Virus record (IMG/VR): IMGVR_UViG_3300012953_000012
Span: 128,001-192,000 of that record
From: a virus
Taxonomy: Duplodnaviria; Caudoviricetes
Length of the DNA: 64,000 bases
Reading direction: 5' to 3' (one strand)
Shown: in pieces, positions 11,504 to 61,604 of the stretch
Position numbering within the stretch: position 1 is the stretch's first letter
How the letters are laid out: each line of letters opens with the position of its first letter
Translations under genes and position numbers: made by a program
Notes under the pieces: model-generated
What the model was told of the DNA's origin: nothing
The model's input: only the letters and a program-made list of their open reading frames with translations
Database searches by the model: none

Positions 11504-11543
11504 CCGGTAGTGTGGCTCTACGCCTTGTCCAAAGGGAGACCCC

Positions 11544-11777
11544 ATGGAAGACATCGACGAAATCAAGCGGATGCTGAAAGAGAGGGGGATTCCCTTCAAC
11601 GGCGGGTGGGGCGAGACCACCGAACGCACCAACATCGAGTCGCCCATGGTCAAGAAGCAGAAGGTGGCTCTACGCCGCCTGGAAGGCATCCTCCAGACTC
11701 AGTTGGAGCAGGACCAGGCGAAGGTCGCGGCGCTCCACGTCCAACTCCAACGCCTGAAGCACGGCGGAGGGTCGTAG
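11544..11777 (+). CDS. Small coiled-coil protein
   Basis: GGGAGA RBS; heptad-like C-terminal half (LRRLEGILQTQLEQDQAKVAALHVQLQRLK). Confidence 0.6.
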   Translation: MEDIDEIKRMLKERGIPFNGGWGETTERTNIESPMVKKQKVALRRLEGILQTQLEQDQAKVAALHVQLQRLKHGGGS

Positions 11778-11780
11778 GGA

Positions 11781-14372
11781 ATGGCCGAGACACCCAAAGA
11801 CTGGATCACGGTACAGCCCAACCTTGACCCCATCATGGTGATCCCGAACGCGATCATCAAGACCATCGACTCGGTGCTGGCGTTCCTGGTCACTCTGCTG
11901 AACATCGCCAACATCATCTTGAACGTGGTCAAGGTGTTCCTGCTCGGGTTGCTCGACCCCATCCGGGCCATCATCGAAGCCATCATCGAGGAGGTCCGGG
12001 CGTTCATCCATGACCTGCGGCAGTTGGGTTTCTACCTCACTGGGGACTGGAACCTCGTCACCGTCAAACCTCTCCGCGCCCCGGAGTTGCTTGGCGGCTA
12101 CGAGTCCTACGAACGCCGGATGCTCAAGCGATTGCTGAACCGCAAAGACCCCGGACGCCCTGACTTCACTTCCCGGTCGGCGGTGATCGGGTTGTTCACC
12201 TACCTGTCCACGGGGGACATCTTCGCGCTGATCGAGTTGATCAACCGCATCAAGGCATTCTTCGGTGCCATGACCTCACCGAGCCAGGCTCCGCTTGTCG
12301 CCCCGACCGTCCCCGAGGCCGAGTTCAAGTCCTCGACCTCCATCCTGCAAAAGCCCCTCTCCCAGTTGACCGGCCCACCAGACCAGGTGACCCTGTCCTG
12401 GAGTATGCCGGGCACGGGATCCCTGTTTTCAGCGGCTCCAGGAGGCTTCCTGGTTCATATCTCCACCGTTGCCAACGGCTTCGGTCTGCGGACCTTCAAG
12501 AACGAGCAGACGGGTGACGCCGCGAACGTGGAGGCTCCCACTTTCCAGCCTTCGGTGGGCATCGACGGGACCAACGGAACGGAGTTGCGTTTGTTTGGGG
12601 GCGTCTGCGACCTCTCCACAGGGGCGTCCGACTACTCAGATGTCGAGGCTGACTCACCTCAGGCGAACAAGTTGCTCCTGTCGTTGGACCAGAACACGCC
12701 GATGGTCCCACCGTCCGAACTTGTGGGGTCAGGCACAGTGCCTATGGGGGCGGCCACATACTTCGTCAAGGTCTCGGGATTCAGCAAGGCGTTCCCCGGC
12801 CAATCGTATTCAGCCTCCTTCTCCTACGACGATCTGCCTCAGAACCCCGCTATCAAGGCGGACGGTCGCGGTGGGGTCGAGGTCACTGGCGAGGACTGCT
12901 ACAACTTCTACGCCCGAGCCAGGCCCGTCACTCCCGAGTACGCTGAGGCCCTGGGGCTGGACGGCAACGCGAAGTCACCGGCACTTGTGACCCCGACCAG
13001 CCTGAAGTTGAACAACTACGCCAACGAGATGATCACCTCCAACGGGAAGGCGCTGTTCAAGCCTCGGCCAGGACCTTCAGGAAAGACGCCAACGCTGTCG
13101 TCCGGGGAGATAGGACCGGCCTCAGCCCCGTGCGTCTTCAGTATGCCCACCGCTGCCGCGATGGACCTGGTCACGGCGACAACCGTGGCGCTGGAGATCC
13201 TGCTCCTCGTTCGCGTGGACCTCGTGGAGGGTGTGCGGCCTGATGATTGGGTTGAGGGGGACAAGTACGGAGGGGCGAACACCTACGCGATAGACCAAGG
13301 GACCGGTCTGGAGCCCCTCAAGGATCTCCTGGCCAACCTCAAGATCGATGACATCTCCCTCTTCTACAAGCAGAAGGATGCGAAGAAGTGGCGGCGTCAG
13401 GTCCGTAGGAAGTGCAAGGCAGCCGCAGCCAGAATGTTCCTGGAAGCCCCCTCGGAAGCGATGGCAGTTGCCCTCGCAGACGAAGTGAGGTTGCTCCTGG
13501 AGTTCAAGTGGTCCGACATTGACTCCGACTGGCCCGACAAGACCATCATTGAAACGATAGCCAACCAGGACCCGACCTGGGGGGTGGCCGCCTACCCCAA
13601 CGGGATCGGGCTTCCGAATACCCTGCGGAGGCTCAGGAGGGGGCCGTCAAGCGGAGAGGCAGACTTGTGGTTGGATCGTTCGACCCTCTTCCCCCCGAAA
13701 CCACTGCCGAGCGGGGCGGACATCAGCGCACAGTTGGCCCTCAAGGGCTACGGAGGGGCCTGGACGACCGGCTTCGGCTGGTCAGACTACTGCCCCGTCC
13801 TGTTCAGTGCCCCGGACGGCACGGCAGCGAATATGTACACCCTCCGCATCAAGTTTGTCCGGCGTTTGCTCATGGACTACGAGAGCGGGAGCCTGCTCGA
13901 CGCAGCGAGCATGGTCTTGAAGGTGGCAGCGGCGGCCAACTCTCGCTCCCCTACGGAGTCTGAGTGGATTACCAAACGGTTCCTCGACGAGGCCCTGGCT
14001 CCCCTCGACAAGTTGCTGGTGGACATCGAGAAGTTCCTGCTGGCCATCCTGGACGGGCTGCAAGGCATGATCGACAAGATCATCGCCTACATCGAAGCCA
14101 TCCAGGCCCGCATCTACCAGATCCAGCAACTCATCCAGATGATCCGGGCGCTGTTGAACTCACTGACGATGTTCGACCTGCCGTCCATGTCGGGTCTGCT
14201 CCTGGTGGAGAACGGCACGGATGGGATCACGAAAGGCTTGATCACCGCAGGGAACAAGCCTTCAGACTCGGCTCTCTCCTACGGCGGTGGGGTGCTTGTC
14301 ATGGCAGGCGGGGTCCCGGCGATTCTGCTTGAGATCCTGGAGTTGATCCTGGGCGGCGGGGGGAGCGAGTAG
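11781..14372 (+). CDS. Putative virion protein with N- and C-terminal amphipathic helical segments, 863 aa
   Basis: Long ORF coupled to its neighbours; helical I/L-rich termini flank a beta-rich core. Confidence 0.6.
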   Translation: MAETPKDWITVQPNLDPIMVIPNAIIKTIDSVLAFLVTLLNIANIILNVVKVFLLGLLDPIRAIIEAIIEEVRAFIHDLRQLGFYLTGDWNLVTVKPLRAPELLGGYESYERRMLKRLLNRKDPGRPDFTSRSAVIGLFTYLSTGDIFALIELINRIKAFFGAMTSPSQAPLVAPTVPEAEFKSSTSILQKPLSQLTGPPDQVTLSWSMPGTGSLFSAAPGGFLVHISTVANGFGLRTFKNEQTGDAANVEAPTFQPSVGIDGTNGTELRLFGGVCDLSTGASDYSDVEADSPQANKLLLSLDQNTPMVPPSELVGSGTVPMGAATYFVKVSGFSKAFPGQSYSASFSYDDLPQNPAIKADGRGGVEVTGEDCYNFYARARPVTPEYAEALGLDGNAKSPALVTPTSLKLNNYANEMITSNGKALFKPRPGPSGKTPTLSSGEIGPASAPCVFSMPTAAAMDLVTATTVALEILLLVRVDLVEGVRPDDWVEGDKYGGANTYAIDQGTGLEPLKDLLANLKIDDISLFYKQKDAKKWRRQVRRKCKAAAARMFLEAPSEAMAVALADEVRLLLEFKWSDIDSDWPDKTIIETIANQDPTWGVAAYPNGIGLPNTLRRLRRGPSSGEADLWLDRSTLFPPKPLPSGADISAQLALKGYGGAWTTGFGWSDYCPVLFSAPDGTAANMYTLRIKFVRRLLMDYESGSLLDAASMVLKVAAAANSRSPTESEWITKRFLDEALAPLDKLLVDIEKFLLAILDGLQGMIDKIIAYIEAIQARIYQIQQLIQMIRALLNSLTMFDLPSMSGLLLVENGTDGITKGLITAGNKPSDSALSYGGGVLVMAGGVPAILLEILELILGGGGSE

Positions 14373-16421: not shown

Positions 16422-16999
16422 CCCGCGAAGGCAGGGAGGAGGCGACCCTCCTTCTGTTCGGGGTGGTGTTCCTGATGCTCTGGCAGTGTGACGAGCCTTC
16501 GGCGCGTGCGCTCCCTCCACTGGAGATCCCGGACACGGCGGTGGCAGCACCTGAGCCTGACCCTCCCGAGGACTTCGCACGGCACTGTGACGTCAAGCCG
16601 CCGGTCGGCTTCAACCGCATGGTCGAGAAGGCTGCCCAGGAGTCCGAGATCAACCCCCGACTCCTGGCGCTGACCGTGTACCGCGAGAGCCGGTGCAAGG
16701 TGGACGCAGTCGGGGCGGTCGGGGAGATCGGTCTGGGGCAGGTGTACCCGGCCATCTGGACCAAGGTACTGACCGACGAGGGGATCATCGGCTCGGTAGA
16801 TGACCTCTACGATCCTGAGGTCAACCTGCGTGCGGTCGGCTTCATCCTGGGCGAAGCCTTGCGTTACGCGAAGGGAGACCCCACCGATGCACTCCGAAGA
16901 TACAACGGCACCGGCCCCGCAGCAGAGCGGTACGCCCACGAGCAAACCCACCTCTACCAAGCCATGTGGGGAGAATCCCTCTGGTTCCGAGACAGGTAG
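16418..16999 (+). CDS. Lytic transglycosylase (SLT domain) with N-terminal membrane anchor
   Basis: Catalytic Glu motif VYRESRC, GEIGLGQV, LYDPEVNL, ALRRYNG; hydrophobic N-terminus. Confidence 0.85.
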   Translation: MTREGREEATLLLFGVVFLMLWQCDEPSARALPPLEIPDTAVAAPEPDPPEDFARHCDVKPPVGFNRMVEKAAQESEINPRLLALTVYRESRCKVDAVGAVGEIGLGQVYPAIWTKVLTDEGIIGSVDDLYDPEVNLRAVGFILGEALRYAKGDPTDALRRYNGTGPAAERYAHEQTHLYQAMWGESLWFRDR

Positions 17000-17451: not shown

Positions 17452-17458
17452 GTGACCC

Positions 17459-18712: not shown

Positions 18713-18760
18713 GACCGGTAGTCCGTCTATCGAAAACCACCAGCAACGAAGGAGGTCAAC

Positions 18761-28959: not shown

Positions 28960-29157
28960 GGGCAGGTCCTCGGGTCACGGAGTGGGCAATAAGCACGACG
29001 GAGAGTGCCCACACGCAGGCCAATGTACCCACAACCTCCGCGACCCTACGGGTGCGTCGGAAGCGTCGGGGGCGCTTGGTTTTCATGGTCATAGAAGGGA
29101 GTACCCGTTGGTCTGTCTATGGTGACCCCCCATCGTAGACGACGAAGGAACACCCCG

Positions 29158-40957: not shown

Positions 40958-42604
40958 ATGACTACTTCCATTTTGACCAGCCTGATGCGGCTGGGTGCCG
41001 AGATCTTCGGCAGCAACGAAGACCTCACCATGCTTCCCAAGGACGACCAGTCCGGCGGCGGCGATGGTGAGTCTGATGACGACGACTCGGACCAGGACGG
41101 CGACGATGCCGATGAGTCCGGTGGCGACCAGGACGACAGCGATGCTGGCGACCAGGACGGTGACCAGGACGGTGACCAGGACGACCAGTCCGGCGACGAT
41201 GCCGATGGCGAGTCCGGCGAGTCTGGCGATGACCAGGACGACACCGATGGTGACGGCTCTGGTGAGTCCGGCGATGACACCGATGGTGACGAAGGCCAGG
41301 ACGACGACGGCGACGACGGCGACGAGTCCAACGGTTCCGATGACGGTTCCGAGGGCGACGAGTCCGGCGACCAGCCCGGTGACGAGTCCGGTGACTCTGG
41401 CGAGGGCGACGGCTCCGACAAGACCGACGACAGCGACAGCGGCGAGCAGACCGACGACGTTGATCCCCAGTCTGACAAGACCGCTGGCGGCTTTGATCCT
41501 GGCGAGGACTTCGCTGACGCCATGGTCGATGGCCTCAAGGCCCCCCAGGATCACATCAAGGACGCGGCTGACGCGCTGGCCGAAGCCACGGACAAGTGCC
41601 GCGACGAAGACGATGTTCACCCTGGTGAGCAGGTCTGGCGTCCCTACAACCCTGAGGCGGACGTCATCGTCAAGCCGAAGGGCGACCGAGAGTCGGCTGA
41701 GACCCTGCGGAAGGAGGCCAAGTTGCTGACCGCTGCCCTCCGCACACAGTTTCGGCGTCGGTTCCTGGCTGCGAAGAACCCCCGTGAACAGCACGGTGTT
41801 CGGCGCGGCAAGGACCTCTCCGAGCGTCGGCTCGTGGAGTCGTTCGTCGAGATCAAGTCCGGCGTGCGCCCCAGCCGCCCCGACTTCAAGGTCGAGTCCC
41901 AGAGGGACGTATCCCTGGCCCTCGGCGTCGTGATCGACCAGTCCGGCTCCATGCACGGTCGCGAGCAGCACGCTGCTGCGGTGGCTGCCCTGGCACTGGC
42001 TGAGTCCTTCGACTCCCTGAACTCCCCTGTGATGGTCTGCGGACCTCGCAACAGTGGGCGGGACGTTCGACGGGCGGACACCGGCTACTACACGGACATC
42101 GACAACGACGACAGCCACACCGGCAGCGTCGATGTGATGCGAGGTCCGAGGTGTCACCGCTACGTCGCCACGGCCATCGACCTGTTCATGGACTGGGACG
42201 AGTCCTTCAAGCAGGTCAAGCACCGCTTCAGCAACGTCCGGGCTACGGGCTCCACGCCCCTGTCTGACGGCATCCAGTTCGCCATGCAGGAGTTGTCCAA
42301 CCGCCCTGAGCGTCACCGGATCATCGTGGTCCTGACGGACGGGGAGCCGGACAACTCCGCTGTGGTGACCCGCCAGATCCGCCTGGCTCGTGAGGCCGGG
42401 ATCACCGTGATCGGTGTCGGCATCAGCGGGGCCGAGTACGCGGTCCCCCGCCTGTTCGTTGACCACCACATCGTCGTCAACGACCTCACGGAGTTGCCGA
42501 AGGCGATGATGGCTGTCGTCGGTGCCATCGTGTTCCCCCGGAGTGCCAAGAAGGCGGTCCTGGACGGGCGCATCGGCACCCGGCGGCAACGTCGGCGGGC
42601 GTAG
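40958..42604 (+). CDS. vWA-domain protein with long acidic linker (CobT/NorD-like C-terminal half)
   Basis: MIDAS DQSGSM, STP, VLTDGEP; ~140-aa D/G/S/E tract. Confidence 0.85.
   Translation: MTTSILTSLMRLGAEIFGSNEDLTMLPKDDQSGGGDGESDDDDSDQDGDDADESGGDQDDSDAGDQDGDQDGDQDDQSGDDADGESGESGDDQDDTDGDGSGESGDDTDGDEGQDDDGDDGDESNGSDDGSEGDESGDQPGDESGDSGEGDGSDKTDDSDSGEQTDDVDPQSDKTAGGFDPGEDFADAMVDGLKAPQDHIKDAADALAEATDKCRDEDDVHPGEQVWRPYNPEADVIVKPKGDRESAETLRKEAKLLTAALRTQFRRRFLAAKNPREQHGVRRGKDLSERRLVESFVEIKSGVRPSRPDFKVESQRDVSLALGVVIDQSGSMHGREQHAAAVAALALAESFDSLNSPVMVCGPRNSGRDVRRADTGYYTDIDNDDSHTGSVDVMRGPRCHRYVATAIDLFMDWDESFKQVKHRFSNVRATGSTPLSDGIQFAMQELSNRPERHRIIVVLTDGEPDNSAVVTRQIRLAREAGITVIGVGISGAEYAVPRLFVDHHIVVNDLTELPKAMMAVVGAIVFPRSAKKAVLDGRIGTRRQRRRA
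41050..41470 (+). repeat. Low-complexity coding repeats (GACCAGGACGGT-type) encoding the Asp/Gly linker
   Basis: Repeated DQDG/DESGD units. Confidence 0.8.
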
Positions 42605-43690: not shown

Positions 43691-44329
43691 ATGCCCAGTG
43701 ACGCCATTGACCTTCTGTTCGACTGGCAGGACGAAAGGCGGGAAGCGGATCGGGAGGAAGCCCCCCACGCCTCGCGCACGGAATCTCGGACGACGATTAC
43801 GCCCAGAAAGGGTGGTTACAAGGTGAAGCCGTGGCCTCCCCGTGAGGTCACGGCGGAAGAACTCGCCAGCGGTCCTTCAAGAACTTGTATCCGGTGTGGG
43901 GTGGCCTACCCGGAGACAAAGGAGTTTTTCAAGTACCATCCACCTACCCGAACATGGAGGCAGGGTGGGTTTCTACCCCGATGTCGAGGCTGTCACCGCA
44001 AGGTAGTCCGTGACAATAAGCGTCGAGCACGCCACACCTTTGCTCAACGGTGCAGGACTATGCGATTCGGGGCGCGTAAGCGGGAGATCGAGTGGGGTTT
44101 CGATGATCAAGAAGACCTCCGTGATCTCTACGACACCCCCTGCCACTACTGCGACGGCGAGGTAAAGAGCCGGATCGCTCTGGACCGAGTAGACAGCACC
44201 AAGGGGTATGTCCCCGGCAACGTGGTGCAGTGCTGTTCGACATGCAACGTGATGAAAATGCGCCTCTCCGTAGACGAGTGGGTGGACCACATGGAACGGG
44301 TGCTCAGTCACCTGCGCGGGACTTCTTGA
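43691..44329 (+). CDS. HNH-type endonuclease
   Basis: PCHYC...LDRVDSTKGYVPGNVVQCCSTCNVMK; extra CxxC. Confidence 0.8.
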   Translation: MPSDAIDLLFDWQDERREADREEAPHASRTESRTTITPRKGGYKVKPWPPREVTAEELASGPSRTCIRCGVAYPETKEFFKYHPPTRTWRQGGFLPRCRGCHRKVVRDNKRRARHTFAQRCRTMRFGARKREIEWGFDDQEDLRDLYDTPCHYCDGEVKSRIALDRVDSTKGYVPGNVVQCCSTCNVMKMRLSVDEWVDHMERVLSHLRGTS

Positions 44330-44543
44330 AGCCCAGCCAGAAGCCCAGGGCGACCATCAGGTGCAGGCTGATGCTTGCGAACGTCTCAAAGTCGGCGTGG
44401 TAGTCGGTCAGATGCAGGTGTACCTGGCCTACGACCCAGAACGGGATCGCAAACTGCTCGCTGTACCAGATCAGGCTGTACTCGATGAAGTCCTTGAACG
44501 CCTGCCTGGGTTGAGGCTCTGCGGCTTTGGGGTCATCCGTCAT
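44304..44543 (-). CDS. Small membrane protein
   Basis: Two hydrophobic segments; late-type element variant at 44559-44573. Confidence 0.55.
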   Translation of the reverse strand: MTDDPKAAEPQPRQAFKDFIEYSLIWYSEQFAIPFWVVGQVHLHLTDYHADFETFASISLHLMVALGFWLGFKKSRAGD

Positions 44544-47463: not shown

Positions 47464-47769
47464 ATGGCTGTCACGGTTTTTCTGGTCGAGGAGTACGGCT
47501 ACCGCACCTGGATCTGGCGCACGGGCATGACCCCGACGCGGCTGATCGCCTGGTGGAAGGCCCTGCCGACTGTCTCACCCTTCTTCTTCAACCCCAGCGA
47601 GAGCGGACTGCCTGGCGACCTGACGCAGGCGGGAGAGACCGACCATGAGCCAGGCTGGTGGAGCGCACACCTCCACATGGACGAGGACTCCTGGCTCCGC
47701 ACCCCCGACGACATTGAGATCCACCACGAAGGCTACACCGGAGAAAGGCATGAAACCCCACCCTCGTGA
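47464..47769 (+). CDS. Hypothetical protein (paralog of 46689-47213)
   Basis: EEY..WW..HLHMDEDSWLRTPD. Confidence 0.65.
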   Translation: MAVTVFLVEEYGYRTWIWRTGMTPTRLIAWWKALPTVSPFFFNPSESGLPGDLTQAGETDHEPGWWSAHLHMDEDSWLRTPDDIEIHHEGYTGERHETPPS

Positions 47770-47983
47770 GCGGGTCGCCCGCAACTTCATCAAGCGGTAC
47801 GGCAGAGAGCAGTTTCGCTGGACCATCGAAGCCTTCGGGGAGCCCCGGTCAGGCCAGGAGGTCGCAAAGCGCCTGGGCGTGTCCCGAGAGCGCGTCCGAC
47901 AGTGGCGCAACGCCTTTGGTCAGACCATCACCTTCTATCGCCTGCACCCGGAAACGAAGCGCATCCTGGACGAGCCGGAATGA
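47750..47983 (+). CDS. HTH DNA-binding protein
   Basis: SGQEVAKRLGVSRERVRQW (sigma region-4-like HTH). Confidence 0.7.
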   Translation: MKPHPRERVARNFIKRYGREQFRWTIEAFGEPRSGQEVAKRLGVSRERVRQWRNAFGQTITFYRLHPETKRILDEPE

Positions 47984-48037
47984 GGGGCGGTAGTGCGACT
48001 ATAGGATCAGAAGGTCAAGACTTCTGGAGCGACCCCG

Positions 48038-48634
48038 ATGCCTCGTACCCTGACTGCCGCCGACCGTAGTGCCCTGATTCGCCTTGCTTCGACCCTGGAG
48101 AAGGGTTCGCCCGAACGCAAGGCCATCCTCGCCGGACTGGGGAAGATGGCGTATGGCTGGAGCAGGTCTGAGAAGGAACTCGGTCGTAAGGCGATGGCGG
48201 AACTCGGACTCACCCAGGGCCAGATGTATGCCCTCCTGGACAGCATGGGTGCTATGTCCGCCCACAATAAGAGCCTTCGTGACGGTGATGGCGAGAAGCC
48301 CATGAAGGGAAAGCGTGATTGGATCGCCATGTCCATGACAGACGGGTTGGTCCGCCCTCTCGGCAGGAAGACTCTGGGCCGCTTCTACGACATCGTGTAC
48401 GGCGACCGGCGGCGTGCCGGACTGGAGAAGATGGCAAGGATGCCTTCTATGGTGCTCAACGATCCCAAAGCCTACTTGCGGTGGGCGCGGAAGACCTGGG
48501 AATACAACGTCAACAACCCCCGCCTGAAGTTCGATGCTGCCGTCGAAAAGACGCGCAAGAAGAACCGGCTTCCCGATACTCCCGAAGGGCGTGCCGAGGC
48601 GGCATACCACGAGATCACGCTGCTCCAGGACTGA
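48038..48634 (+). CDS. Hypothetical protein with N-terminal LIRLAxxLxxGS motif
   Basis: AADRSALIRLASTLEKGSPERKAILAGLGKMA; CGGTAG-N5-CTAT at 47988-48002. Confidence 0.8.
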   Translation: MPRTLTAADRSALIRLASTLEKGSPERKAILAGLGKMAYGWSRSEKELGRKAMAELGLTQGQMYALLDSMGAMSAHNKSLRDGDGEKPMKGKRDWIAMSMTDGLVRPLGRKTLGRFYDIVYGDRRRAGLEKMARMPSMVLNDPKAYLRWARKTWEYNVNNPRLKFDAAVEKTRKKNRLPDTPEGRAEAAYHEITLLQD

Positions 48635-48646: not shown

Positions 48647-49543
48647 CTACACGAACGAGCGGGGGCTCAGGACTCCACGCCCGACGTAGGGTCCGAAGGC
48701 TGACCTGACCCCACGACCGAACCGGGGCTGCGCCAGACCACGCATGTAGTGGACCGTCCGGGACTTCGCCTCGGTGAGTTTGTCCCACTGGTCCTCAGCG
48801 TTTTGCTTCATGCCTTCGTACTTGCCGGACTTCTCGATGGAGAGGCTGATCCCGCCGATGCTGTAGTCGAACTCGTTGGCGATCCAGTTGTAGACGAGCG
48901 CCTGAGCCGCGTTCACGAGTGCCCCCCACAGCAACGCTGCCTTCCAGGAAGGTTTCTGCTGGCACAGCATCTCGATGTTCTTGATCTCCTCGGTCGAGGG
49001 TGGGTGCATGTTCCACTTCCAGAGGGCGATCTCCAGGTACTCGGCAAACTCTTCGTCGGTCCAGATGTAGCCGAACACCTGGTTGTAGCAGCCCACCGTG
49101 CCTTCGCCTTCGGGAGGCATGAAGCGGTAGTTGCGGTCGGGATTGTTGTCCCTCGTCAGGAAGCGCATCTTGCGGATCAGGTCCGTCAGGCAGTCCGAGT
49201 AGGGGTTGGCCTCGGTTTCGACGGCACTGGACACGACGCCGAACTCCTGGACGGCCCCTTCCTCGGCGCTCGTTGCTGTCTCCCGGAAGCGCCAACGGAT
49301 GCGGTAGTCCCCCGGAGCCGCACTGGAGGGCACCTGGAGGCTCGCGTAGTACTCACCCACCGTGGGGTTCACCGGAGTCCTGGTCGCGGACCCAATCAGG
49401 ACCTCGGCGGTCGTGGTGGGGTCCACATAGTAGACGGCGTAGGAGATGCTGAAGGCGTTGGTGGGGTTGCCGTCCGCGTTGGACAGGTAGATGTCCAGGT
49501 CGCCGCGAGCGAGGGTCTGACCCTGAGTGAATACGACAGCCAT
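48647..49543 (-). CDS. Putative virion neck/head-tail adaptor-like protein with N-terminal Ig-like domain
   Basis: DYSIGGISLSIEKS..Y pattern; late-type element at 49575-49589; function inferred. Confidence 0.5.
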   Translation of the reverse strand: MAVVFTQGQTLARGDLDIYLSNADGNPTNAFSISYAVYYVDPTTTAEVLIGSATRTPVNPTVGEYYASLQVPSSAAPGDYRIRWRFRETATSAEEGAVQEFGVVSSAVETEANPYSDCLTDLIRKMRFLTRDNNPDRNYRFMPPEGEGTVGCYNQVFGYIWTDEEFAEYLEIALWKWNMHPPSTEEIKNIEMLCQQKPSWKAALLWGALVNAAQALVYNWIANEFDYSIGGISLSIEKSGKYEGMKQNAEDQWDKLTEAKSRTVHYMRGLAQPRFGRGVRSAFGPYVGRGVLSPRSFV

Positions 49544-49583
49544 GTGCTACCTCCTTGCCTACGGGTGCGATCCCATAGCCGCA

Positions 49584-49685
49584 CTACCGGGTGAGGCTCC
49601 ATCTCCAGAGATCGAACGCCAGCAGCGTGCCGATGACGAGAGCCAGCAGCGACCAGATGACCCACGTTGGAACCTTGTCGTTCAC
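49584..49685 (-). CDS. 33-aa single-TM peptide
   Basis: MNDKVPTWVIWSLLALVIGTLLAFDLWRWSLTR; stop lies inside the late-type element. Confidence 0.4.
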   Translation of the reverse strand: MNDKVPTWVIWSLLALVIGTLLAFDLWRWSLTR

Positions 49686-51514: not shown

Positions 51515-51558
51515 CGGTAGACGCTCTATGTTTTCGGGGGGTGTAGGAGAGTAGGATC

Positions 51559-52044: not shown

Positions 52045-52375
52045 CGCTACCACTACGGCTGCCATCGTCGCCGCTGTGACAGGGGTGATGTCCGCAGGTG
52101 CGTTCAAGTTTTACGAGTTCATCCTAAAGCAGCGCCGTGAGGTCCAGAAGGAGGAGAAGGCCGAGCAGATGCTCTACCGCGATGACCTCATTCGCCGAGT
52201 CGAGAAACTGGAGAGCGAGCGGGACGACCGGATAGAGGAAGCCATCGGATTCCGCGCTGAGATCAGCGCCATGAAGGTCCAGATCGACTTCATGAAGCAG
52301 GAGAATGACCTGCTGAAAGGGCAGGTCGAACTGGTCAAGCACGAGAACCAGATCCTCAAAGACACCCTACGGTAG
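52034..52375 (+). CDS. Single-TM plus coiled-coil protein (possible lysis accessory)
   Basis: TM helix then heptads; function inferred. Confidence 0.55.
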   Translation: MANDATTTAAIVAAVTGVMSAGAFKFYEFILKQRREVQKEEKAEQMLYRDDLIRRVEKLESERDDRIEEAIGFRAEISAMKVQIDFMKQENDLLKGQVELVKHENQILKDTLR

Positions 52376-52409
52376 TGATTCGATAGGCTGCTCCCGGTAG
52401 GAGATCACC

Positions 52410-53533: not shown

Positions 53534-53992
53534 CTACCCAGCCCATGCCTCCGACTCGGGGGCGATGCTGGGGAATCGACCGCCGCCACCCATGCCGTAC
53601 AAGAGAACCGCGAGCCCTTCGTCGTCACGGGCCATCTCCTTGAGCCTTTCGGTGAGGGACTTCTCCAGGTTGTACTCGGCCTTCGCCTCGTCCATACCGT
53701 CGCGGTACTTGACGAAGAAGGTGACCCTGTTGCCCTTGTCAGTGACCTGTGTCACGTCACCCAGGCCGAGGCGTCTGCCGACGTCCTTCAGATCATCAAC
53801 CGCACTGTCGTAGTCACGGCCATAAGGGTCGTCGAAACGGCCCCATTCAGATGCCCTCGTGTCCAGAGGGACCTCCACGCTCAGGAGGTTGTCGTCCATC
53901 CCGATGCGGCGGAAGTAGGCACGCCGCACCATCCGGTCCTGCCGGTAGGCGTACTCCAGTGCGACACGGTGGGTAGATGCGGTACGAATCAT
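53534..53992 (-). CDS. Hypothetical protein with RTAS/RVALEYA leader
   Basis: AGGAGA RBS; CGGTAG-N5-CTAT at 54021-54035. Confidence 0.7.
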   Translation of the reverse strand: MIRTASTHRVALEYAYRQDRMVRRAYFRRIGMDDNLLSVEVPLDTRASEWGRFDDPYGRDYDSAVDDLKDVGRRLGLGDVTQVTDKGNRVTFFVKYRDGMDEAKAEYNLEKSLTERLKEMARDDEGLAVLLYGMGGGGRFPSIAPESEAWAG

Positions 53993-54029: not shown

Positions 54030-56096
54030 CTACCGCGCAGACTGCTGAACCGTGTCCTCTGCTGGGGTCAGGGTTTCCCAGTCGATCTCACAGGAACCAC
54101 CGACACAGGCCAGGGTCTGTGCGCCGTTGCCCATGTCCTCGGTTTCGTACCGAGAGAGCAGCGCGTAGTCGAGAACAGGGAAGTCCAGGAGCCGGGTGCG
54201 GTACTCGGACTCGGTGATCTCTTCGTAGGGGGCCAACTCGTACTTGCCGCCGTCGTAGGGCAGGAAGGAAAGCCCCGTGACCTCGTCGAAGTGCTCGTAG
54301 AGCCAGTCACCAACCTGACCCCACTCGTCTTCGCGGACGTAGACCGTGGCGCTCTGGTTGTGGCCGCGCTCCGAGCACCAGGTCCGCATGATGTGGAGGT
54401 AGCGGCCCAACTGCTCCAGGGCGGTCTCGTCGTTCCGGGTCATGCAGCCTTCGGGGGCCTTGACTGGAAACTCGACAACCCAGGTCGGGCAGTCAGCATC
54501 GGGGCCATTCTTGTACTTCACGTCCTTGAAGACAGGAGCACCGGAGTCCCGGACCAGGTGGAACAAGGGGTCGTTGGCACTCACCCGGACGCGCCGGATG
54601 TAGAACTCTGCGTACCGGGTGTGGAAGCCGCTCGCGCAGTCCACCGCCTGGGAGGAGTTGCCGCTGGGCTTGCCACAGGTCACGGACGCAGGCATCTCGA
54701 TGCCCAGGTGTGCAGCCGCTTCGGCGGCAGTCTCCAGGGCGACCTGGTTGAAGTAGGACATCGCCTCGGCATCGTTGGAGAGCGCCGGGTTGTCACAGTG
54801 GCCGGTGATGTCCACCCCGAGCAGGCGGTCTTCGTTGCAGTGCTGAGTCCAGGCAGGACGCAGGTAGGGGAAGTCGGTGAACGACGCCTGGAGGGCACCG
54901 ATCCAGGTGGCGGTGCGAACCTTCGCAGCGAAGGACTCGCGGGTGTCTGTCTCCCGCATGACGGCAGCCGAGAGGTTGCAGAACTGCCCGCCGCCGCCCT
55001 TGCCTGTCCAGGGGCACTCGGCTCTGGAGAAGCGAAGCAGGATCTCACCGCAGGGGTTGGACCGCATCTCGCCGTTGCGCTCTTCACGACGGCTGGAGGG
55101 GATCATGTAGAAGCCGCGTTCGCCGGAACCGCTGTTCCGAAGGGCGTCCCACTCGCGGTCGAAGATGTCACGGTCTGGCTTGGCGTCCCAGAACGCCGAG
55201 ATATTCGCCATGTAGCGACACTCGGGGAACGACCCCTTGCGCCAATCCTTTGCGTGTCGCATGAGTTCGTCGTCAGGGTCAGAGAAGCAGATCAACGCTG
55301 CGCGGCGCACACCACCAGCCTTGACGATCTCACCGATCATGCAGGCGATGTCACTGACCTCGATGGTCCGCAACTGGCGGCCTGAGGCACCGTCGATGAT
55401 CTCTTGGCAGAACTCCAGGAGGAGACGGAGAGGCTTCGGCCCGGAAGCACGGCCACCCTTCGTCTGGCAGCGGGCACCTTCGGGGCGGATCTGCGAGTAG
55501 TCAAACTCGACGGTGTGTCCCTTCCACATGTGGGTCAACCCGTTGAACACCGCATCGGCCCAGCCGACTGTGCTGTCCGGGATGGTGTACTGGATCGCGT
55601 CACCAGAACGAGGGGCGACCTCTGGGAGGTTGCCGACGAACTTGCGCTCGACCGAGTAGCCGACACCCGTGCCCATCATCAGGATGTACAGCATCTCCCC
55701 AAACGCCTTGAGGTTGTCGAGGGGCACGAAGGAGCAGTTGTAGATCATCGTGTTGTCACGCGCTGCCGCAGGGCCAGCGGACCACAGAGCACGCATCGAC
55801 GGAAGGACTCCCATCGAGAGCATCCCCTCCCGGATGTCCCCCAAAACCGCAGAAGGAACGGAACGCTCACCACCAACGAAGTCGCAGTAGCGGTCCACCG
55901 CCTCCTCGTAGGTCTCGCGGCGGCCCTCTTCTTCGCGCCAGCGTAGGTACGAGCGGGTCACAACAAACTGAGACAGGGCGTTGGGGTAGCCGAAAACCGG
56001 CTTGCGGGTGGGAACGAGGTCAGGGCTGCTACTACACGACTCATGCCTGGTCGGGGTGCTGGATTGTGCGTCTGACAGGGGCATGAGTTCGATCAT
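54030..56096 (-). CDS. nrdJ: Class II (B12-dependent) ribonucleotide reductase
   Basis: PSMRALW, YNCSF, GTGVGYSV, GGRASGP, GGVRRAALI, NPCGEI, CNLS, KPSGNSSQ, C-terminal CxxxxC; no nrdB partner. Confidence 0.9.
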   Translation of the reverse strand: MIELMPLSDAQSSTPTRHESCSSSPDLVPTRKPVFGYPNALSQFVVTRSYLRWREEEGRRETYEEAVDRYCDFVGGERSVPSAVLGDIREGMLSMGVLPSMRALWSAGPAAARDNTMIYNCSFVPLDNLKAFGEMLYILMMGTGVGYSVERKFVGNLPEVAPRSGDAIQYTIPDSTVGWADAVFNGLTHMWKGHTVEFDYSQIRPEGARCQTKGGRASGPKPLRLLLEFCQEIIDGASGRQLRTIEVSDIACMIGEIVKAGGVRRAALICFSDPDDELMRHAKDWRKGSFPECRYMANISAFWDAKPDRDIFDREWDALRNSGSGERGFYMIPSSRREERNGEMRSNPCGEILLRFSRAECPWTGKGGGGQFCNLSAAVMRETDTRESFAAKVRTATWIGALQASFTDFPYLRPAWTQHCNEDRLLGVDITGHCDNPALSNDAEAMSYFNQVALETAAEAAAHLGIEMPASVTCGKPSGNSSQAVDCASGFHTRYAEFYIRRVRVSANDPLFHLVRDSGAPVFKDVKYKNGPDADCPTWVVEFPVKAPEGCMTRNDETALEQLGRYLHIMRTWCSERGHNQSATVYVREDEWGQVGDWLYEHFDEVTGLSFLPYDGGKYELAPYEEITESEYRTRLLDFPVLDYALLSRYETEDMGNGAQTLACVGGSCEIDWETLTPAEDTVQQSAR

Positions 56097-56199
56097 CGTG
56101 GTGTCCTCGGAGGCGTAGGGTTCGGGTTTCATAAAGCGTCGGGCAGCCATTAGAGCCTCGACTGTGAAGCCCTCTCTGAACCCGCCCCTATACGGCGGG

Positions 56200-57201
56200 C
56201 TATTGACCCCCTACCGAGGAACAGCCCCTTAAGAGAGCCGCCTCACATGCTACCCACGGAGCGGGAACACCCCTCAACACGCCCCTGTCTACATGAGCAA
56301 GATCACGGACGAGGTTCACAAGATTTCTTGTGCCCCACTTTTTCGCGGCGGGGATTGTCGTGCGCTCCGTTACCCAGGAGGGTGACCCCAGCATGGCACC
56401 GATCTGATGAGGGGTGGTGCCACGCTCCAGGAGCAGGGATGCCTGGAGCCATCGGTAGGCGAGGTCTGCCGGGCCACCGCGTGCTCGGAGGAGGAGCATC
56501 GTCGGGTCAGTCACCGACTTACGGCGTAGGGTCACAAGGGCTTTGGCCATCTTCGCCGTGTGCCTCGACGCGAGAGCATCCCGAACGGGCTGCATGTCTA
56601 CGCCGATGTGGCCCTTCACAACAGCCTTGACCTCAGCCGAGGTGATCTGCTTGCCGCCTTGCGACCGGACCAAAGCCGTGATCTTGCTCATCTCGTAGGA
56701 GAGGACACCGAGGTCCACGCCCATGACGCCGACCATGGCTTTCGCCAGGTCAGTGCTGAGAGCCTGCTGGTTGAGGGTGAGTCGATGTGCCTCCATGACG
56801 AGGAACTTGACGGCCCGCCCCTCCCTGTCCTGTTTCCGGGCAGGGATGCAGTAGGTGACTGTGTGTTTCTTCTTCACCAGGGCGACCGCTGGATGCTTCT
56901 TCGGGTCTGCGTTGCCCTCCACCTCCATGAGGATGCACACCCGCCCAGGCTTGTCGGCCTCGTGGGCACTCACAGTCTCGGGATCAACCTTTCCGCCTGG
57001 CACCAGGATCAACGTCGGCTGCCCGAAGGTAGTGCCCATGGAGAGCGCGTCGATGACCTCACCGTCTGACCCGGCATGGACAACCTCGTAGCCTGCCTGG
57101 TACGCGCCCATCATGGCGTGACGTAGCCATCGACGGCACAGGAACCGCTCGTCCCCGGTCACGGCCAGCACGGGAGGGGGTTTGTCCCACGAGAGTTTCA
57201 C
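56200..57201 (-). CDS. holA: DNA polymerase III delta subunit-like
   Basis: AVTGDERFL, DLGVLSYEMSKITAL, ITSAEV..VV, D.D..VLRG. Confidence 0.75.
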   Translation of the reverse strand: MKLSWDKPPPVLAVTGDERFLCRRWLRHAMMGAYQAGYEVVHAGSDGEVIDALSMGTTFGQPTLILVPGGKVDPETVSAHEADKPGRVCILMEVEGNADPKKHPAVALVKKKHTVTYCIPARKQDREGRAVKFLVMEAHRLTLNQQALSTDLAKAMVGVMGVDLGVLSYEMSKITALVRSQGGKQITSAEVKAVVKGHIGVDMQPVRDALASRHTAKMAKALVTLRRKSVTDPTMLLLRARGGPADLAYRWLQASLLLERGTTPHQIGAMLGSPSWVTERTTIPAAKKWGTRNLVNLVRDLAHVDRGVLRGVPAPWVACEAALLRGCSSVGGQ

Positions 57202-58399: not shown

Positions 58400-58411
58400 G
58401 CTCGCAACCCC

Positions 58412-58612: not shown

Positions 58613-58660
58613 CTTCCTCCATGTGGAGACATACCCACATGACCCGAGAGGTGACCCCCC

Positions 58661-59164
58661 TCAATAGCCTTGGGAGACAGCCCGAGCCTTGATGATCCCG
58701 GACAACTGCTGCAAGTAGTCACCAACCTCGTACTGGTACAACCCCCCGACAGCCGCAGTGCTGTGGGAAGAAGTCCCAACCACAGCGCCAGCAGGGTACT
58801 GCACCTGTCCTCCGCTCTGGGGGATCAGGACATTCGTAGGCAGAGTCAGGGTGTCTCCCGTAGAGGGATCAACACCGGCCCACCAGTTTGTTCGCAGGTC
58901 GTCCACCACAGGAACCACGACGTTTTGCCACTGAGTCCAGTGGACCCACACAGGAAGACTGCCCCTCAAGGTAGGGATGGTGTCAGGAAGCGGTTCGATC
59001 CCGATGATCCCCACCTTCACAGATGGGTTGGAACGATCTGTACCAGGGAACACAGGCTTGGCGTGTCCCTTGACCAGCAGAAAGATCGGGATGGGGAGCA
59101 GATCAGCCAACTCCGTGGCTGTCCTCACAGGGGCTATGCCCGTTCGATAGTCAGCCCGTGCCAT
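58661..59164 (-). CDS. Hypothetical late-type protein
   Basis: AGGAGGA RBS; CCGTAG-N5-CTAT at 59190-59204. Confidence 0.65.
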   Translation of the reverse strand: MARADYRTGIAPVRTATELADLLPIPIFLLVKGHAKPVFPGTDRSNPSVKVGIIGIEPLPDTIPTLRGSLPVWVHWTQWQNVVVPVVDDLRTNWWAGVDPSTGDTLTLPTNVLIPQSGGQVQYPAGAVVGTSSHSTAAVGGLYQYEVGDYLQQLSGIIKARAVSQGY

Positions 59165-59763
59165 GGTTCCTCCTACAGCGAGGGGTCCGATAGACGGACT
59201 ACGGAGAGGATCACAGGATCACTCGTCGCGGGTGTCGTTGTACTACTACTTGTATGCGTATGGGGTGTCTGGTGGTTGGTGGTTGTCGTGTCATTCATCG
59301 TGAGTGTCTTATTCAATCGGTCAACCTACGGTTTCCCTACTCCTAAGAGAAGGTAGTACTCCTTCTCTCGGTCCCTCTCCTTGTGTGTCAGTGGAGAGGG
59401 CTGAGGATGCCTGGCTGAAGAACCTGACCCTTGAACACGGCTCGCTTGTGGATCCCCCTGACTCCCTTCCCAGTTGGGTGGTCAGGTTGTGGGAAGCACA
59501 AGGCCGAGTAGGCTGGCTCCGAAGACCCGCTCCTGTGGGGGAGGTAGGGTCAACCCTTCATCGGTTCCGTCGTGAGAAAGATCGTGTGACTGAGGCTGTT
59601 CCTTGACCTTCGGGTTTCCCCGATCCCGCACCGAGGGACCTCAAGCGAGCACACGATCTGACGAACCGGCCCATCCTGTTTCCCCCAGCCTGAGACTGGT
59701 GTCACGGGTAGTATCTACTCGACAGCAGGGCTCCGAGCAACCCCCCTGTGTGAGGATGGCCTT

Positions 59764-60075: not shown

Positions 60076-61365
60076 CTACCGGGCTACGAAGGTGTCACCC
60101 CAGCCTTTGCGGACGAGGCCCTGAATGTCGAGGTAGGCCAGGCACCGGTCGAGTCGTGGCTGGTCCATCCGCAGCGCCTCCTTGATTTCCTTCTTGGTGG
60201 ACCACGGCTCCATGCGGAGCAGGGCCAGAGTGTTTTGGGCATCTTCACGAGTCTGGATGCCTTCGCGCAACGCCGCCCGGACCTTGCTCCGGTTGGTGAG
60301 GGCACGGGTCACCGAGCACTCGTCCATGTCGGCAATCTCCTCGGCACTCGCTCCTGCGATCATGGCGTCGTACACAGCAGTGTACCGCTCGACTGCGCCC
60401 CGGAACGCGGAGGCAACGATCTCCCGACCGACTCGGACCATCTCCTCTCGGTCCCGGTGAGTTGCGACCTCGTCCTCAGGGGTCATGCTGGGGTCCACCA
60501 GGACATGCTCCACAACCAGGTCCCCTTCGTCGGGCTTCATTCGGATGACCTCGATGTCCCCTGCCACCAGGCTCTCAGGGGCGACATAGTCCTCCTGACC
60601 GAGTTCAATGCGTTGGTTGATCTCATGCTGGGTGCGAGCGCCGCGCTGACGGGCAAGAGCGTCCTGAGCGGACTTGTAGATGGAAGAGGTGCGCTTGCGC
60701 TCCAATGCCCGGCACAACCACGAGAACGGGACCGCGCCCTTCTCCTTGATGACGGCATCGAACGTGCCCTTCTGTCCCCAGGTTGCCAACCACAGGCCAG
60801 CGTCTGAACGGAGGTCATCGAAGTCAGCATGGACATCGCGCTTCGCCAACATCGCGGCAAGTCGTTTGATGAGGCCGTGCTCCGCGATCTGAACCGCCAG
60901 CCACTCTTGGGTCAGGGTGGTGGAGGCAGCGGGAGCCTTCACAGGAGCCGCAGGAGCCTCGACAGGGGCTTCCTCGACCACAGGCTCCGGTGCAGCCTCG
61001 ACAACGGGCTCGACAGGCTGTGGGGTCTCGACGGGGGTTGAGTCGGTGTTGCTCTCCGGGAGCACGTCGAGGACGATCTCGCGGTCTCCGTCACGGAGGG
61101 TGGCGAGCAGGGTCTCGGGCTGACCTCGGAGGGCAGCGAGTAGAGCGGATGCAAAGCGGGTCTGAGCCCCAGCGCCCTTGAAGCCATTTTGGAGCACGAG
61201 GTCACGGCGCACGATGCTGCGCTTGCGGCCCTGCTCTTCGGCGGTGGCGGTGATCCAGACGCTGATCTCTCGCTCGACCGAGGCGTCGTCCTCGGGAGTG
61301 GCGGTGAAGCCGCTGATCAGGTTGGTGAGGAGGGCGAGACGGCGTGGGGTGGTCTTGATAGACAT
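60076..61365 (-). CDS. Putative sigma-70/ECF-like factor with extra N-terminal domain and C-terminal winged helix
   Basis: Region-2-like DFDDLRSDA.LWL...FD..PFSW; region-4-like GASAEEIADMDECS..A...R.K..AALR; terminal wHTH ..LAYLDIQGLV. Confidence 0.55.
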   Translation of the reverse strand: MSIKTTPRRLALLTNLISGFTATPEDDASVEREISVWITATAEEQGRKRSIVRRDLVLQNGFKGAGAQTRFASALLAALRGQPETLLATLRDGDREIVLDVLPESNTDSTPVETPQPVEPVVEAAPEPVVEEAPVEAPAAPVKAPAASTTLTQEWLAVQIAEHGLIKRLAAMLAKRDVHADFDDLRSDAGLWLATWGQKGTFDAVIKEKGAVPFSWLCRALERKRTSSIYKSAQDALARQRGARTQHEINQRIELGQEDYVAPESLVAGDIEVIRMKPDEGDLVVEHVLVDPSMTPEDEVATHRDREEMVRVGREIVASAFRGAVERYTAVYDAMIAGASAEEIADMDECSVTRALTNRSKVRAALREGIQTREDAQNTLALLRMEPWSTKKEIKEALRMDQPRLDRCLAYLDIQGLVRKGWGDTFVAR

Positions 61366-61555
61366 GGCGTTCCTGGGTTTGCCAGCAGGGCTGGTCATGC
61401 GATGGTTTTTTCGATCAGGTCAGGACAGGCGACAGTGCTACAAGGAGCGGGTCTTTGGTCGTGACCCTTCGGTTGTAGCATGGGAGGAGCGGCGGGTCAA
61501 CCCGGTTTGGCCACTTTTGTCCCACTTTGCTCCACGTCCCCCGATTAGCGTTGCT

Positions 61556-61604
61556 CGGTAGAGTGGCTATGATCACGGACCAGTGATCTCGGTAGTCCCT
61601 CTAT
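61556..61604 (+). promoter_or_regulatory. Tandem CGGTAG-N5-CTAT elements (putative late promoters)
   Basis: Two exact copies at 61556-61570 and 61590-61604. Confidence 0.7.

What the first reader, a model, noticed from the sequence alone, without database searches (positions are those of the whole stretch)
11505..61604. CG(G/T)TAG-N5-CTAT: a compact phage-specific late promoter motif
Seen with a fixed 5-nt spacer, intergenic and sense-oriented. Exact CGGTAG form: 18716, 47988, 49575(-), 51515, 54021(-), 61556, 61590. Variants: 15176 CGTTAG, 29106 CGTTGG, 50152 CGGTAT, 59190(-) CCGTAG, 44559(-) CGGTGA, 52370 ..CGAT, 56202(-) ..CAAT, 11505 ..CTCT, 17203 TGGTAC. Most lie ~20-60 nt before structural-type or tag-bearing genes. 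A 15-bp element with no -35 partner recalls T4 gp55 and jumbo-phage late promoters, but the sequence differs from the ones I know. Inference: recognition site of a phage-encoded sigma factor or RNAP.
Basis: partly seen in the sequence, partly recalled or inferred. Interest (0 to 1): 0.7.

Follow-up and report, generated by a model that had tools for sequence, protein, structure and literature searches.

The report
Giant-phage promoter signal CGGTAG-N5-CTAT
A 15-base two-part DNA signal sits just in front of about one gene group in four or five of an uncultured giant phage and its relatives; it is almost certainly the phage's own promoter for tail and accessory genes, probably read by host RNA polymerase carrying a phage-made sigma-type factor, but no transcript start has been measured.

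Summary
All 16 listed sites exist. CGGTAG-N5-CTAT occurs 7 times in the window and 18 times in the 205-kb record, against about 0 expected. In this record and two relatives (297 and 288 kb), 58 of 58 exact copies lie in the ~10% non-coding DNA. All 58 point at the next gene and end 23 nt or more (mode 27-32) before its start codon.

Unbiased counting of two-part words puts CGGT-N7-CTAT first in five related genomes. Genes shared between relatives keep the motif while spacer and flanks change. Four back-to-back divergent pairs leave no room for another promoter.

It is one promoter class among several. A gene block at 31-42 kb lacks it and instead carries GTTAAAAC-N8-CTGCTTCCGTAAGTA.

The reader of the signal is inferred, not shown. 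No phage RNA polymerase or sigma-54 was found in 1.45 Mb of relatives. The clade does encode a divergent two-domain sigma and a protein with two sigma-region-4 domains. The 5-bp spacer fits no known sigma geometry.

'Late' rests on gene content only: baseplate, sheath-initiator-like and fibre-like genes. A conserved weakened variant also precedes a ribonucleotide reductase gene.

The scan found this motif before, in this genome and in another one.

The parts
11505..11519 (+). motif variant CGGTAGTGTGGCTCT, 24 nt before the 77-aa gene at 11544, directly after the stop of the 3810-aa gene
   Evidence: 11.7 bits
15176..15190 (+). motif variant CGTTAGAGCGCCTAT, 25 nt before the 326-aa gene at 15216. 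Orthologues in G004, G005 and G006 also carry a variant.
   Evidence: 17.3 bits
17203..17217 (+). weak variant TGGTACTTCGTCTAT before a small ORF and the 417-aa gene at 17459
   Evidence: 10.2 bits, borderline
18716..18730 (+). exact motif, 30 nt before the 166-aa gene at 18761
29106..29120 (+). variant CGTTGGTCTGTCTAT in a divergent gap, 37 nt before the 483-aa gene at 29158
   Evidence: 12.2 bits
44559..44573 (-). weak variant CGGTGAGATTTCTAT, only 15 nt before the called start of the 79-aa gene 44304-44543. The start call or the site is uncertain.
   Evidence: 11.5 bits
47988..48002 (+). exact motif, 35 nt before the 198-aa gene at 48038. It is kept before orthologues in G001, G002, G004, G005 and G006 with changed spacer and flanks.
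49575..49589 (-). exact motif, 31 nt before the 298-aa gene 48647-49543. It is kept in G001, G004 and G005 (one change in G005).
It is a possible second promoter 110 nt upstream of 49575(-).
   Evidence: 15.4 bits
50152..50166 (+). variant CGGTATCTCGGCTAT, 25 nt before the highly conserved 440-aa gene at 50192. Orthologous sites are CGATAC.. (G002) and GGGTAG.. (G004).
51515..51529 (+). exact motif, starting right after the TGA stop of the 440-aa gene and 29 nt before the 161-aa gene at 51559
52370..52384 (+). variant CGGTAGTGATTCGAT. Its TAG is the stop codon of the upstream gene. It lies 25 nt before the 256-aa gene at 52410.
   Evidence: 14.8 bits
54021..54035 (-). exact motif. Its TAG is the stop of the RNR gene. 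It lies 28 nt before the 152-aa gene 53534-53992 and is kept in G001 and G002 with diverged flanks.
56202..56216 (-). variant CGGTAGGGGGTCAAT, 51 nt before the class II ribonucleotide reductase gene 54030-56150. The same off-consensus 3' half (CAAT or CGAT, then AGCCC) is kept before the RNR orthologues of G004 and G006.
59190..59204 (-). variant CCGTAGTCCGTCTAT, 25 nt before the 167-aa gene 58661-59164. The same CCGTAG variant is kept in G004.
61556..61570 (+). exact motif, the first of a tandem pair 34 nt apart
61590..61604 (+). exact motif, the second of the pair, 36 nt before the ATG at 61641 of the 756-aa gene

Best explanation
CGG-TAG-N5-CTAT (core CGGT-N7-CTAT) is the complete promoter signal of one transcription class in a clade of uncultured giant phages. 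It marks the start of about 45-50 transcription units in this 205-kb fragment. These include tail/baseplate genes and many accessory genes. Proposed mechanism (inferred): the host core RNA polymerase is redirected by a phage-made sigma-family factor. The AT-rich 3' half, CTAT, serves as a short -10-like element. RNA would then start some 5-10 nt downstream of it. The 5' half, CGGT(AG), lies one helical turn upstream and supplies the rest of the specificity. It would be read either by a second DNA-binding domain of the same factor or by a partner protein. There are two candidate readers. One is the conserved 302-aa two-domain sigma at G000:87185-88090(-). The other is the ~211-aa protein with two sigma-region-4 folds, which sits next to a NusG-like gene and a clamp-loader gene just beyond the end of this record. 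Shown here: the statistics, position, orientation and conservation of the motif, and the presence of the candidate factors. The confidence of 0.6 is for the whole statement, including sigma dependence. That the element is a promoter at all I put at about 0.85.
For: (1) Enrichment: 18 exact copies against ~0.1 expected, and 20 one-mismatch copies against 3.5 expected.
(2) Position: 58 of 58 exact sites in three genomes lie in the ~10% non-coding DNA, and all 58 are sense to the next gene. In co-directional gaps 81 carry the motif in sense and 1 in antisense. Only 1 of 32 convergent gaps carries it.
(3) Four divergent gaps hold two motifs back to back, with 5' ends -2 to 20 nt apart. That leaves no room for any other upstream promoter.
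(4) An unbiased count of two-part words ranks CGGT-N7-CTAT first in the upstream regions of five genomes. The exact motif scores 25, 15, 5, 6 and 1 in five relatives against 0 for the reversed control.
(5) Orthologous genes keep the motif while spacer and flanks diverge.
(6) It is class-specific. The 31-42 kb block has none and carries a different conserved promoter-like motif before CobT/VWA, MoxR-AAA and SWIM genes.
(7) No conserved base lies outside the 15 bp.
(8) No phage RNA polymerase (PF00562, PF00623, PF00940) or sigma-54 DNA-binding domain was found in 8 records totalling 1.45 Mb; PF00623 was also absent from a 485-kb relative.
(9) The A2 family has 915 homologues. Its profile hits sigma-H (PDB 3mzy) at E = 6.9e-5. 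21 of 28 members hit Sigma70_r2 weakly. The top 50 fold matches are all sigma factors.
(10) The double region-4 protein hits Sigma70_r4 at E = 5.9e-13. It is conserved in G004, G005, G007 and LR745208.1.
(11) Anti-Shine-Dalgarno words (CTCC or CCTC) occur within 13 nt after CTAT in 31 of 99 sites against 45 of 384 controls (p = 9e-6). This makes sense if RNA starts inside or after them.
(12) Precedent: late promoters of phage 7-11 have a 4-base -10 element 'aCTA', read by a phage sigma (PMC8948821).
(13) Genes driven by the motif include a Baseplate_J protein and a beta-helix protein, plus a weak sheath-initiator match below Pfam's cut-off and a baseplate-hub-like protein known only from an atlas lead.
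Against: No transcript 5' end is available. The 5-bp spacer puts the two halves only ~10 bp apart, centre to centre. That is about 13 bp too close for sigma domains 2 and 4 held in the canonical holoenzyme, so a standard -35/-10 reading fails. Neither candidate factor is tied to the motif by any test. The G005 record carries the motif but has no A2 homologue in its 288 kb; the record is 79% complete, and a 350-kb contig of the same length as one that carries the marker protein (67% identical to ours) does encode an A2 homologue. A conserved variant precedes the RNR gene, which weakens the 'late only' reading. Functions of most driven genes in the window are unknown; Pfam and PHROGs gave no hits.
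Confidence: 0.6

Rival explanations
1. The motif is the promoter of a phage-encoded RNA polymerase that the family searches cannot recognise, either single-subunit T7/N4-like or another kind. The RNA would start 1-2 nt after CTAT.
For: The element is about as long as a T7-family promoter upstream of its start, and it is self-contained. It ends in CTAT-n-G in many copies, which recalls CTATAG at -5..+1 of T7/SP6 promoters (own knowledge; sequences). Several very large proteins have no recognisable family, for example the 3810-aa one.
Against: PF00940, PF00562 and PF00623 are absent from 1.45 Mb of the clade; PF00623 is also absent from a 485-kb relative. The bases after CTAT are not conserved: G is present in only 43 of 112 sites at the second position. 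T7-type promoters have a fixed +1 G. Anti-SD words directly after CTAT would then be in every transcript and would block the ribosome site. A conserved DVDGD lead in a 1468-aa protein turned out to be baseplate-hub-like. The PF00940 search had no positive control.
Confidence: 0.1
2. The motif is the binding site of a phage transcription regulator. That could be a monomer with two helix-turn-helix domains, or a dimer on the TAG-N5-CTA inverted repeat. The regulator would switch on, or repress, promoters whose core elements are read by the host's own sigma.
For: The two halves are ~10 bp apart, which is the spacing of two successive major grooves. TAG-N5-CTA is an inverted repeat. The clade encodes a conserved protein with two region-4-type HTH domains. 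A small HTH protein is encoded at 47645-47983, right before an exact site.
Against: No -10-like or -35-like element is conserved at any fixed distance around the motif. In 62% GC DNA a host-sigma promoter should stand out. The minimum of 23 nt to the start codon leaves no room for a separate -10 element plus leader downstream. Orientation is strictly one-way, so the element is read asymmetrically.
Confidence: 0.15
3. The motif acts in RNA, not DNA. It would be a processing site that cuts long operon transcripts between genes, or a site for a translational regulator.
For: Sense orientation, an intergenic position and a fixed distance to the start codon would also fit an RNA signal.
Against: Back-to-back divergent pairs sit at the very start of opposite operons with 5' ends -2 to 20 nt apart. 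A transcript holding one motif would have to start inside the other. A 3-bp stem cannot fold. The motif often overlaps the upstream stop codon, and no structure is conserved.
Confidence: 0.04

Closest known systems
Late promoters of phiEco32-like phages, read by phage sigma factors on the host core: phi32_gp36 (tAATGTAtA) and SaPh711_gp47 of phage 7-11 (GTAAtg-16-aCTA) (PMC8948821)
   Same: A lineage-specific consensus unrelated to the host's. It lies before middle or late genes. A phage-encoded divergent sigma is present. The 7-11 -10 element 'aCTA' is as short as CTAT and similar to it. Starts there lie 6-9 bp from the element.
   Different: Here the two halves are 5 bp apart, not 16. The element is also not a single -10 box. 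No transcription data exist. The sigma candidates share no close sequence relation with gp36 or gp47 (not tested directly).
Phage T4 late promoters (TATAAATA), read by gp55 with gp33 and the sliding clamp (own knowledge; gp33 discussed in PMC7824862)
   Same: There is no -35 element. The compact promoter sits close to the gene. Some copies are placed so that read-through RNA could hide the ribosome site. A clamp-loader gene sits next to the region-4 protein in relatives.
   Different: The sequence differs and the element is two-part. The candidate sigma has both domain 2 and domain 4. No gp55 or gp33 homologue was sought or found.
Sigma-54 promoters (TGGCAC-N5-TTGC, the -24/-12 layout; own knowledge)
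   Same: The layout is identical: a hexamer, a 5-bp spacer and a tetramer. GG occupies the same place in the hexamer.
   Different: No sigma-54 DNA-binding domain occurs in 1.45 Mb of the clade. The 3' half is CTAT, not TTGC. No enhancer-binding ATPase is linked to it.
T7/SP6-type single-subunit polymerase promoters (own knowledge)
   Same: The size is similar, there is no separate upstream element, and CTAT lies near the 3' end.
   Different: No such polymerase was found. There is no conserved +1.
Late promoters of jumbo phages with their own multisubunit polymerases, such as AR9 (AACA-N6-TW) and phiKZ (own knowledge; papers listed)
   Same: Short two-part, start-proximal elements in very large phages.
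   Different: No beta or beta-prime homologues occur here.

Membership tests
Sigma-70-family (ECF-type) -35/-10 promoter | Two elements separated by about 16-17 bp | tested here: not met
   The spacer is fixed at 5 bp. No conserved base lies within 50 nt upstream.
Sigma-70-family (ECF-type) -35/-10 promoter | A cognate sigma with domains 2 and 4 is encoded | tested here: met
   The A2 family hits sigma-H (PDB 3mzy) at 6.9e-5 over domains 2-4, and all of the top 50 fold matches are sigma factors. Its link to this motif is untested.
Sigma-70-family (ECF-type) -35/-10 promoter | Transcription starts 6-9 nt downstream of the -10 element | not testable with these tools
   No RNA run was listed. The only indirect hint comes from anti-SD words after CTAT.
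T4 gp55-type late promoter | A single -10-region box with no -35 element | tested here: inconclusive
   There is no -35 element, but the element is two-part and spans 15 bp.
T4 gp55-type late promoter | gp55 and gp33 homologues are present | not tested
   No search was made with gp55 or gp33 models.
T7-like single-subunit polymerase promoter | A phage T7-like RNA polymerase (PF00940) is encoded | tested here: not met
   There were no hits in 8 records. The records are incomplete and the search had no positive control.
T7-like single-subunit polymerase promoter | Conserved initiating bases directly after the element | tested here: not met
   The positions after CTAT carry 0.16 bit or less.
Sigma-54 -24/-12 promoter | A sigma-54 DNA-binding domain is encoded, or the consensus is GG-N10-GC | tested here: not met
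   PF04552 is absent. The 3' half is CTAT. Only the 6+5+4 layout agrees.
Jumbo-phage multisubunit polymerase promoter (phiKZ/AR9 type) | Phage beta/beta-prime homologues are encoded | tested here: not met
   PF00562 and PF00623 are absent in 1.45 Mb; PF00623 is also absent in LR745208.1.

The most novel reading that the evidence does not exclude
The 15-bp element is read in one piece by a phage factor on the host core, with a DNA-binding domain placed only one helical turn upstream of a 4-base -10 element. That would be a promoter-recognition geometry not described for any sigma-70-family factor, laid out like sigma-54's -24/-12 but built from sigma-70-type parts. The domain could be the candidate sigma's own domain 4 freed from the beta flap, or the double region-4 partner protein.
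Probability: 0.2. Interest if true: 0.75.

Novelty: new variant of a known kind. Interest (0 to 1): 0.5.

Why it matters
The signal gives a ready map of transcription units for a widespread, uncultured clade of giant phages in which nearly all genes lack annotation. It splits their genes into at least two regulatory classes. It also names testable proteins, a divergent sigma and a double region-4 protein, that could be expressed and assayed on E. coli core polymerase without culturing the phage. If the 5-bp spacing is truly read by a sigma-type factor, it would extend the known ways in which bacterial RNA polymerase is aimed at promoters.

Tried and rejected
- RNA evidence: no RNA holder was listed for window:47900-54100, so no start sites could be mapped.
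- DNA similarity: megablast of 15 kb against cultured phages found nothing. The nearest cultured relative by protein is Bacillus phage G, at 25% identity over 42% of one protein.
- Annotation: Pfam and PHROGs gave no hits for most motif-driven genes in the window or for the 3810-aa protein.
- The conserved 440-aa protein: its model was poor (pLDDT 59.9) and the fold search gave nothing. An atlas lead to baseplate wedge proteins scored only 0.90.
They are not excluded, because the tests used single sequences.
- A conserved DVDGD motif, checked as a hidden polymerase signature: it lies in a baseplate-hub-like protein.
- Capsid, sheath and terminase families: only one sub-threshold capsid hit, in G004.
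- A GTATAR-N5-CTAT element before the sigma gene: it is not repeated elsewhere.
- General leader hairpins: fold z-scores are only mildly negative, and pairing between the leader's first bases and the SD region is only modestly above control. Only the anti-SD word test was clearly significant.
- Literature: no paper holds this motif as a phage promoter.

Full report
**What the window is.** The window is bases 128001-192000 of a 205,564-bp virus record. The record is about 62% GC, and CheckV estimates it at 46% complete. Almost none of its proteins match Pfam or PHROGs. The nearest cultured phage by protein is Bacillus phage G, at 25% identity over part of one protein. An uncultured 485-kb phage, LR745208.1, is a closer relative at 44%.

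- The exact 15-mer CGGTAGNNNNNCTAT occurs 7 times in the window against 0.00 expected. It occurs 18 times in the record and never when the pattern is read backwards.
- One-mismatch copies number 20 against 3.5 expected.
- A weight matrix trained only on two other genomes recovers all 16, plus 49700(-). It gives 48 hits in the record against 6.8 expected.
- The copy at 16794 lies in a coding frame, scores below threshold and is probably chance.

**Position and orientation.** I made a rough gene call from codon usage. I then counted sites in this record and in two relatives fetched whole: G004 (297 kb) and G005 (288 kb).
- All 58 exact copies lie in the 9-11% of DNA that is non-coding, or overlap only the upstream stop codon.
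- All 58 point toward the next gene.
- In 19 of the 58, the motif's own TAG is the stop codon of the upstream gene.
- The gap from the end of CTAT to the start codon is never below 23 nt. It peaks at 27-32 nt.
- Among gaps between co-directional genes, 81 carry the motif in sense and 1 in antisense.
- Among 32 convergent gaps, 1 carries it. Among 64 divergent gaps, 29 carry it.
- In four divergent gaps, two motifs stand back to back with their 5' ends -2 to 20 nt apart. A signal that acted in RNA would need a promoter upstream of it, and there is no room for one. This is my main argument for a DNA-level promoter.

**Extent of the element.** Aligning 112 sites shows no conserved base in the 50 nt upstream. 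Nothing is conserved downstream until the purine-rich ribosome site about 11-18 nt after CTAT. Within the spacer the second base is C or G in all 18 exact copies of this record. That preference weakens in the larger set.

**Conservation in relatives.**
- The exact motif is present 25, 15, 5, 6 and 1 times in five IMG/VR relatives, with zero hits for the reversed control.
- An unbiased count of all 4-mer/gap/4-mer words in upstream regions ranks CGGT-N7-CTAT first in each of five genomes.
- Orthologous genes keep the motif while spacer and flanks change. Examples are the genes at 48038, 49543(-), 50192, 53992(-), 59164(-) and 15216.
- In LR745208.1 the full motif is not enriched: 16 hits against 34 for the control.
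- However, CTAT is still the most enriched tetramer 20-60 nt before start codons there, and a few TTAG-N5-CTAT sites are seen. The 3' half therefore seems older than the 5' half. The numbers are small, so this is only a lead.

**It is one class among several.**
- The window has no copy between 19.3 and 28.9 kb or between 31 and 44 kb.
- The second of these blocks carries another strongly conserved element, GTTAAAAC-N8-CTGCTTCCGTAAGTA. It has 16 copies in the record, all in sense orientation.
- That element precedes genes for a CobT-like VWA protein, a MoxR-type AAA protein and a SWIM-finger protein.
- Genes behind CGGTAG-N5-CTAT that could be named are a Baseplate_J protein and a 1923-aa beta-helix protein. 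Weaker leads are a sheath-initiator match below Pfam's cut-off and a baseplate-hub-like protein.
- This fits a virion, hence probably late, class. But a variant with an off-consensus 3' half (CAAT or CGAT) is conserved before the class II ribonucleotide reductase gene in three genomes. 'Late' is therefore likely for most sites but not shown, and the class is not purely structural.

**Who reads it.**
- Searches of eight related records (1.45 Mb) found no multisubunit polymerase subunits, no T7-like polymerase and no sigma-54 DNA-binding domain. A beta-prime domain search of LR745208.1 also found nothing. The records are incomplete, and the T7-family search had no positive control, so absence is likely rather than proven.
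- The clade does encode sigma-type proteins. A 302-aa protein (G000:87185-88090, minus strand) has 915 homologues in public data, some named sigma-24 family by JGI.
- Its profile hits sigma-H (PDB 3mzy) at 6.9e-5 across domains 2 to 4. 21 of 28 members hit Sigma70_r2 weakly.
- Its model (pLDDT 81) matches only sigma factors among the top 50 solved structures, though with weak E-values.
- Just beyond the end of this record, near-identical relatives encode a three-gene cluster. It comprises a clamp-loader-like protein, a NusG-like protein and a ~211-aa protein with two sigma-region-4 stretches (E = 5.9e-13).
- That last protein is conserved in G004, G005, G007 and LR745208.1.
- G005 also has an ordinary 347-aa sigma.

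**How it most likely works.** Host core polymerase with a phage sigma-type factor is the most economical reading. CTAT, the only AT-rich patch in the 3' half, would act as a short -10 element. There is precedent: the late promoters of phage 7-11 have the -10 element 'aCTA', read by a phage sigma (PMC8948821).

One new observation bears on the start site. Anti-Shine-Dalgarno words occur within 13 nt after CTAT in 31 of 99 sites, against 45 of 384 controls (p = 9e-6). RNA reading through from upstream could then pair with, and hide, the ribosome site. RNA begun several bases after CTAT could not. That fits a sigma-type start better than a T7-type start directly after CTAT. It is a hint, not a measurement.

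The unresolved difficulty is the 5-bp spacer. The two halves are about 10 bp apart, centre to centre. That is roughly 13 bp closer than domains 2 and 4 of a sigma sit in the normal holoenzyme. Either another domain or partner reads CGGT(AG), or the geometry is new. The layout (6 + 5 + 4) is that of sigma-54 promoters, but no sigma-54 is present.

**Rivals.** An unrecognised phage polymerase, a regulator binding site laid over host-type promoters, and an RNA-level signal are weighed in the rival list. The regulator reading is the strongest rival, because a monomer with two HTH domains fits two grooves 10 bp apart. It fails to explain the lack of any other conserved core element.

**Verdict.**
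- The interpretation as a phage-specific promoter is strongly supported by comparative evidence.
- A phage sigma is plausible, and candidates are named.
- 'Late' is only partly supported.
- A phage RNA polymerase is unlikely.

The same motif was already reported by this scan on another window of this genome and on another genome. My tests were made independently and agree on the promoter reading. They disagree with the note that places sigma factors at 60-64 kb of this window.

Noticed in passing
window ~32811(-), 34106(-), 35750(-), 37652(-), 38989(-), 39447(-), 39646(+), 40874(+); 8 more elsewhere in the record: There is a second, unrelated conserved promoter-like element, GTTAAAAC-N8-CTGCTTCCGTAAGTA, often preceded by a T or A run. 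It has 16 copies, all sense, 26-190 nt before genes. It may be an early or middle class with a sigma-70-like layout (TTAAAA-16-TAAGTA). The same pattern search did not find it in G004 or G005.
   Followed up: partly
window 54030-56150 (-): A class II (B12-dependent) ribonucleotide reductase gene. It is preceded by a motif variant whose off-consensus 3' half (CAAT or CGAT, then AGCCC) is conserved in G004 and G006.
   Followed up: partly
window 47645-47983 (+): A small 112-aa protein with a sigma-region-4-type helix-turn-helix (28.4 bits, over the cut-off). It ends 5 nt before the exact motif at 47988. It has no homologue in G004-G008 by tblastn.
   Followed up: partly
G001 (L019:17-1992), beyond the right end of this record: A conserved gene trio: a clamp-loader lid-domain protein, a NusG-like protein (PF02357) and a ~211-aa protein with two sigma-region-4 stretches. 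In G004 an exact motif starts right after the third gene's stop.
   Followed up: partly
window 71-11503 (+): A 3810-aa protein with no Pfam or PHROG match. It is conserved (37-49% identity) in G004, G006 and G008 and sits next to baseplate-hub-like genes.
   Followed up: partly
window 37722-38927 (-) and 40958-42604 (+): A MoxR-type AAA_5 protein and a CobT-like VWA protein, which form a pair often seen in phages. Both lie behind the second promoter-like class.
   Followed up: no
G005:C1:51760-51812 (-): Three identical copies of CGGTAGAGCTACTAT in tandem with a 19-nt period. The window has a tandem pair at 61556 and 61590.
   Followed up: no
window 61641-63911 residues 483-531 versus window 48044-48190: A ~49-residue segment is shared (59% identity) between the 756-aa protein and the N-terminus of the 198-aa protein, and also with proteins in G004-G006. 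This is consistent with the portable peptide tag reported by earlier notes.
   Followed up: no
G000:88100-88330 (-), G004:108490-108760 (-): Upstream of the candidate sigma gene a hairpin is followed by GTATA(G/A)-N5-CTAT-CGAC. It is conserved between G000 and G004 and is related to, but distinct from, the main motif.
   Followed up: partly
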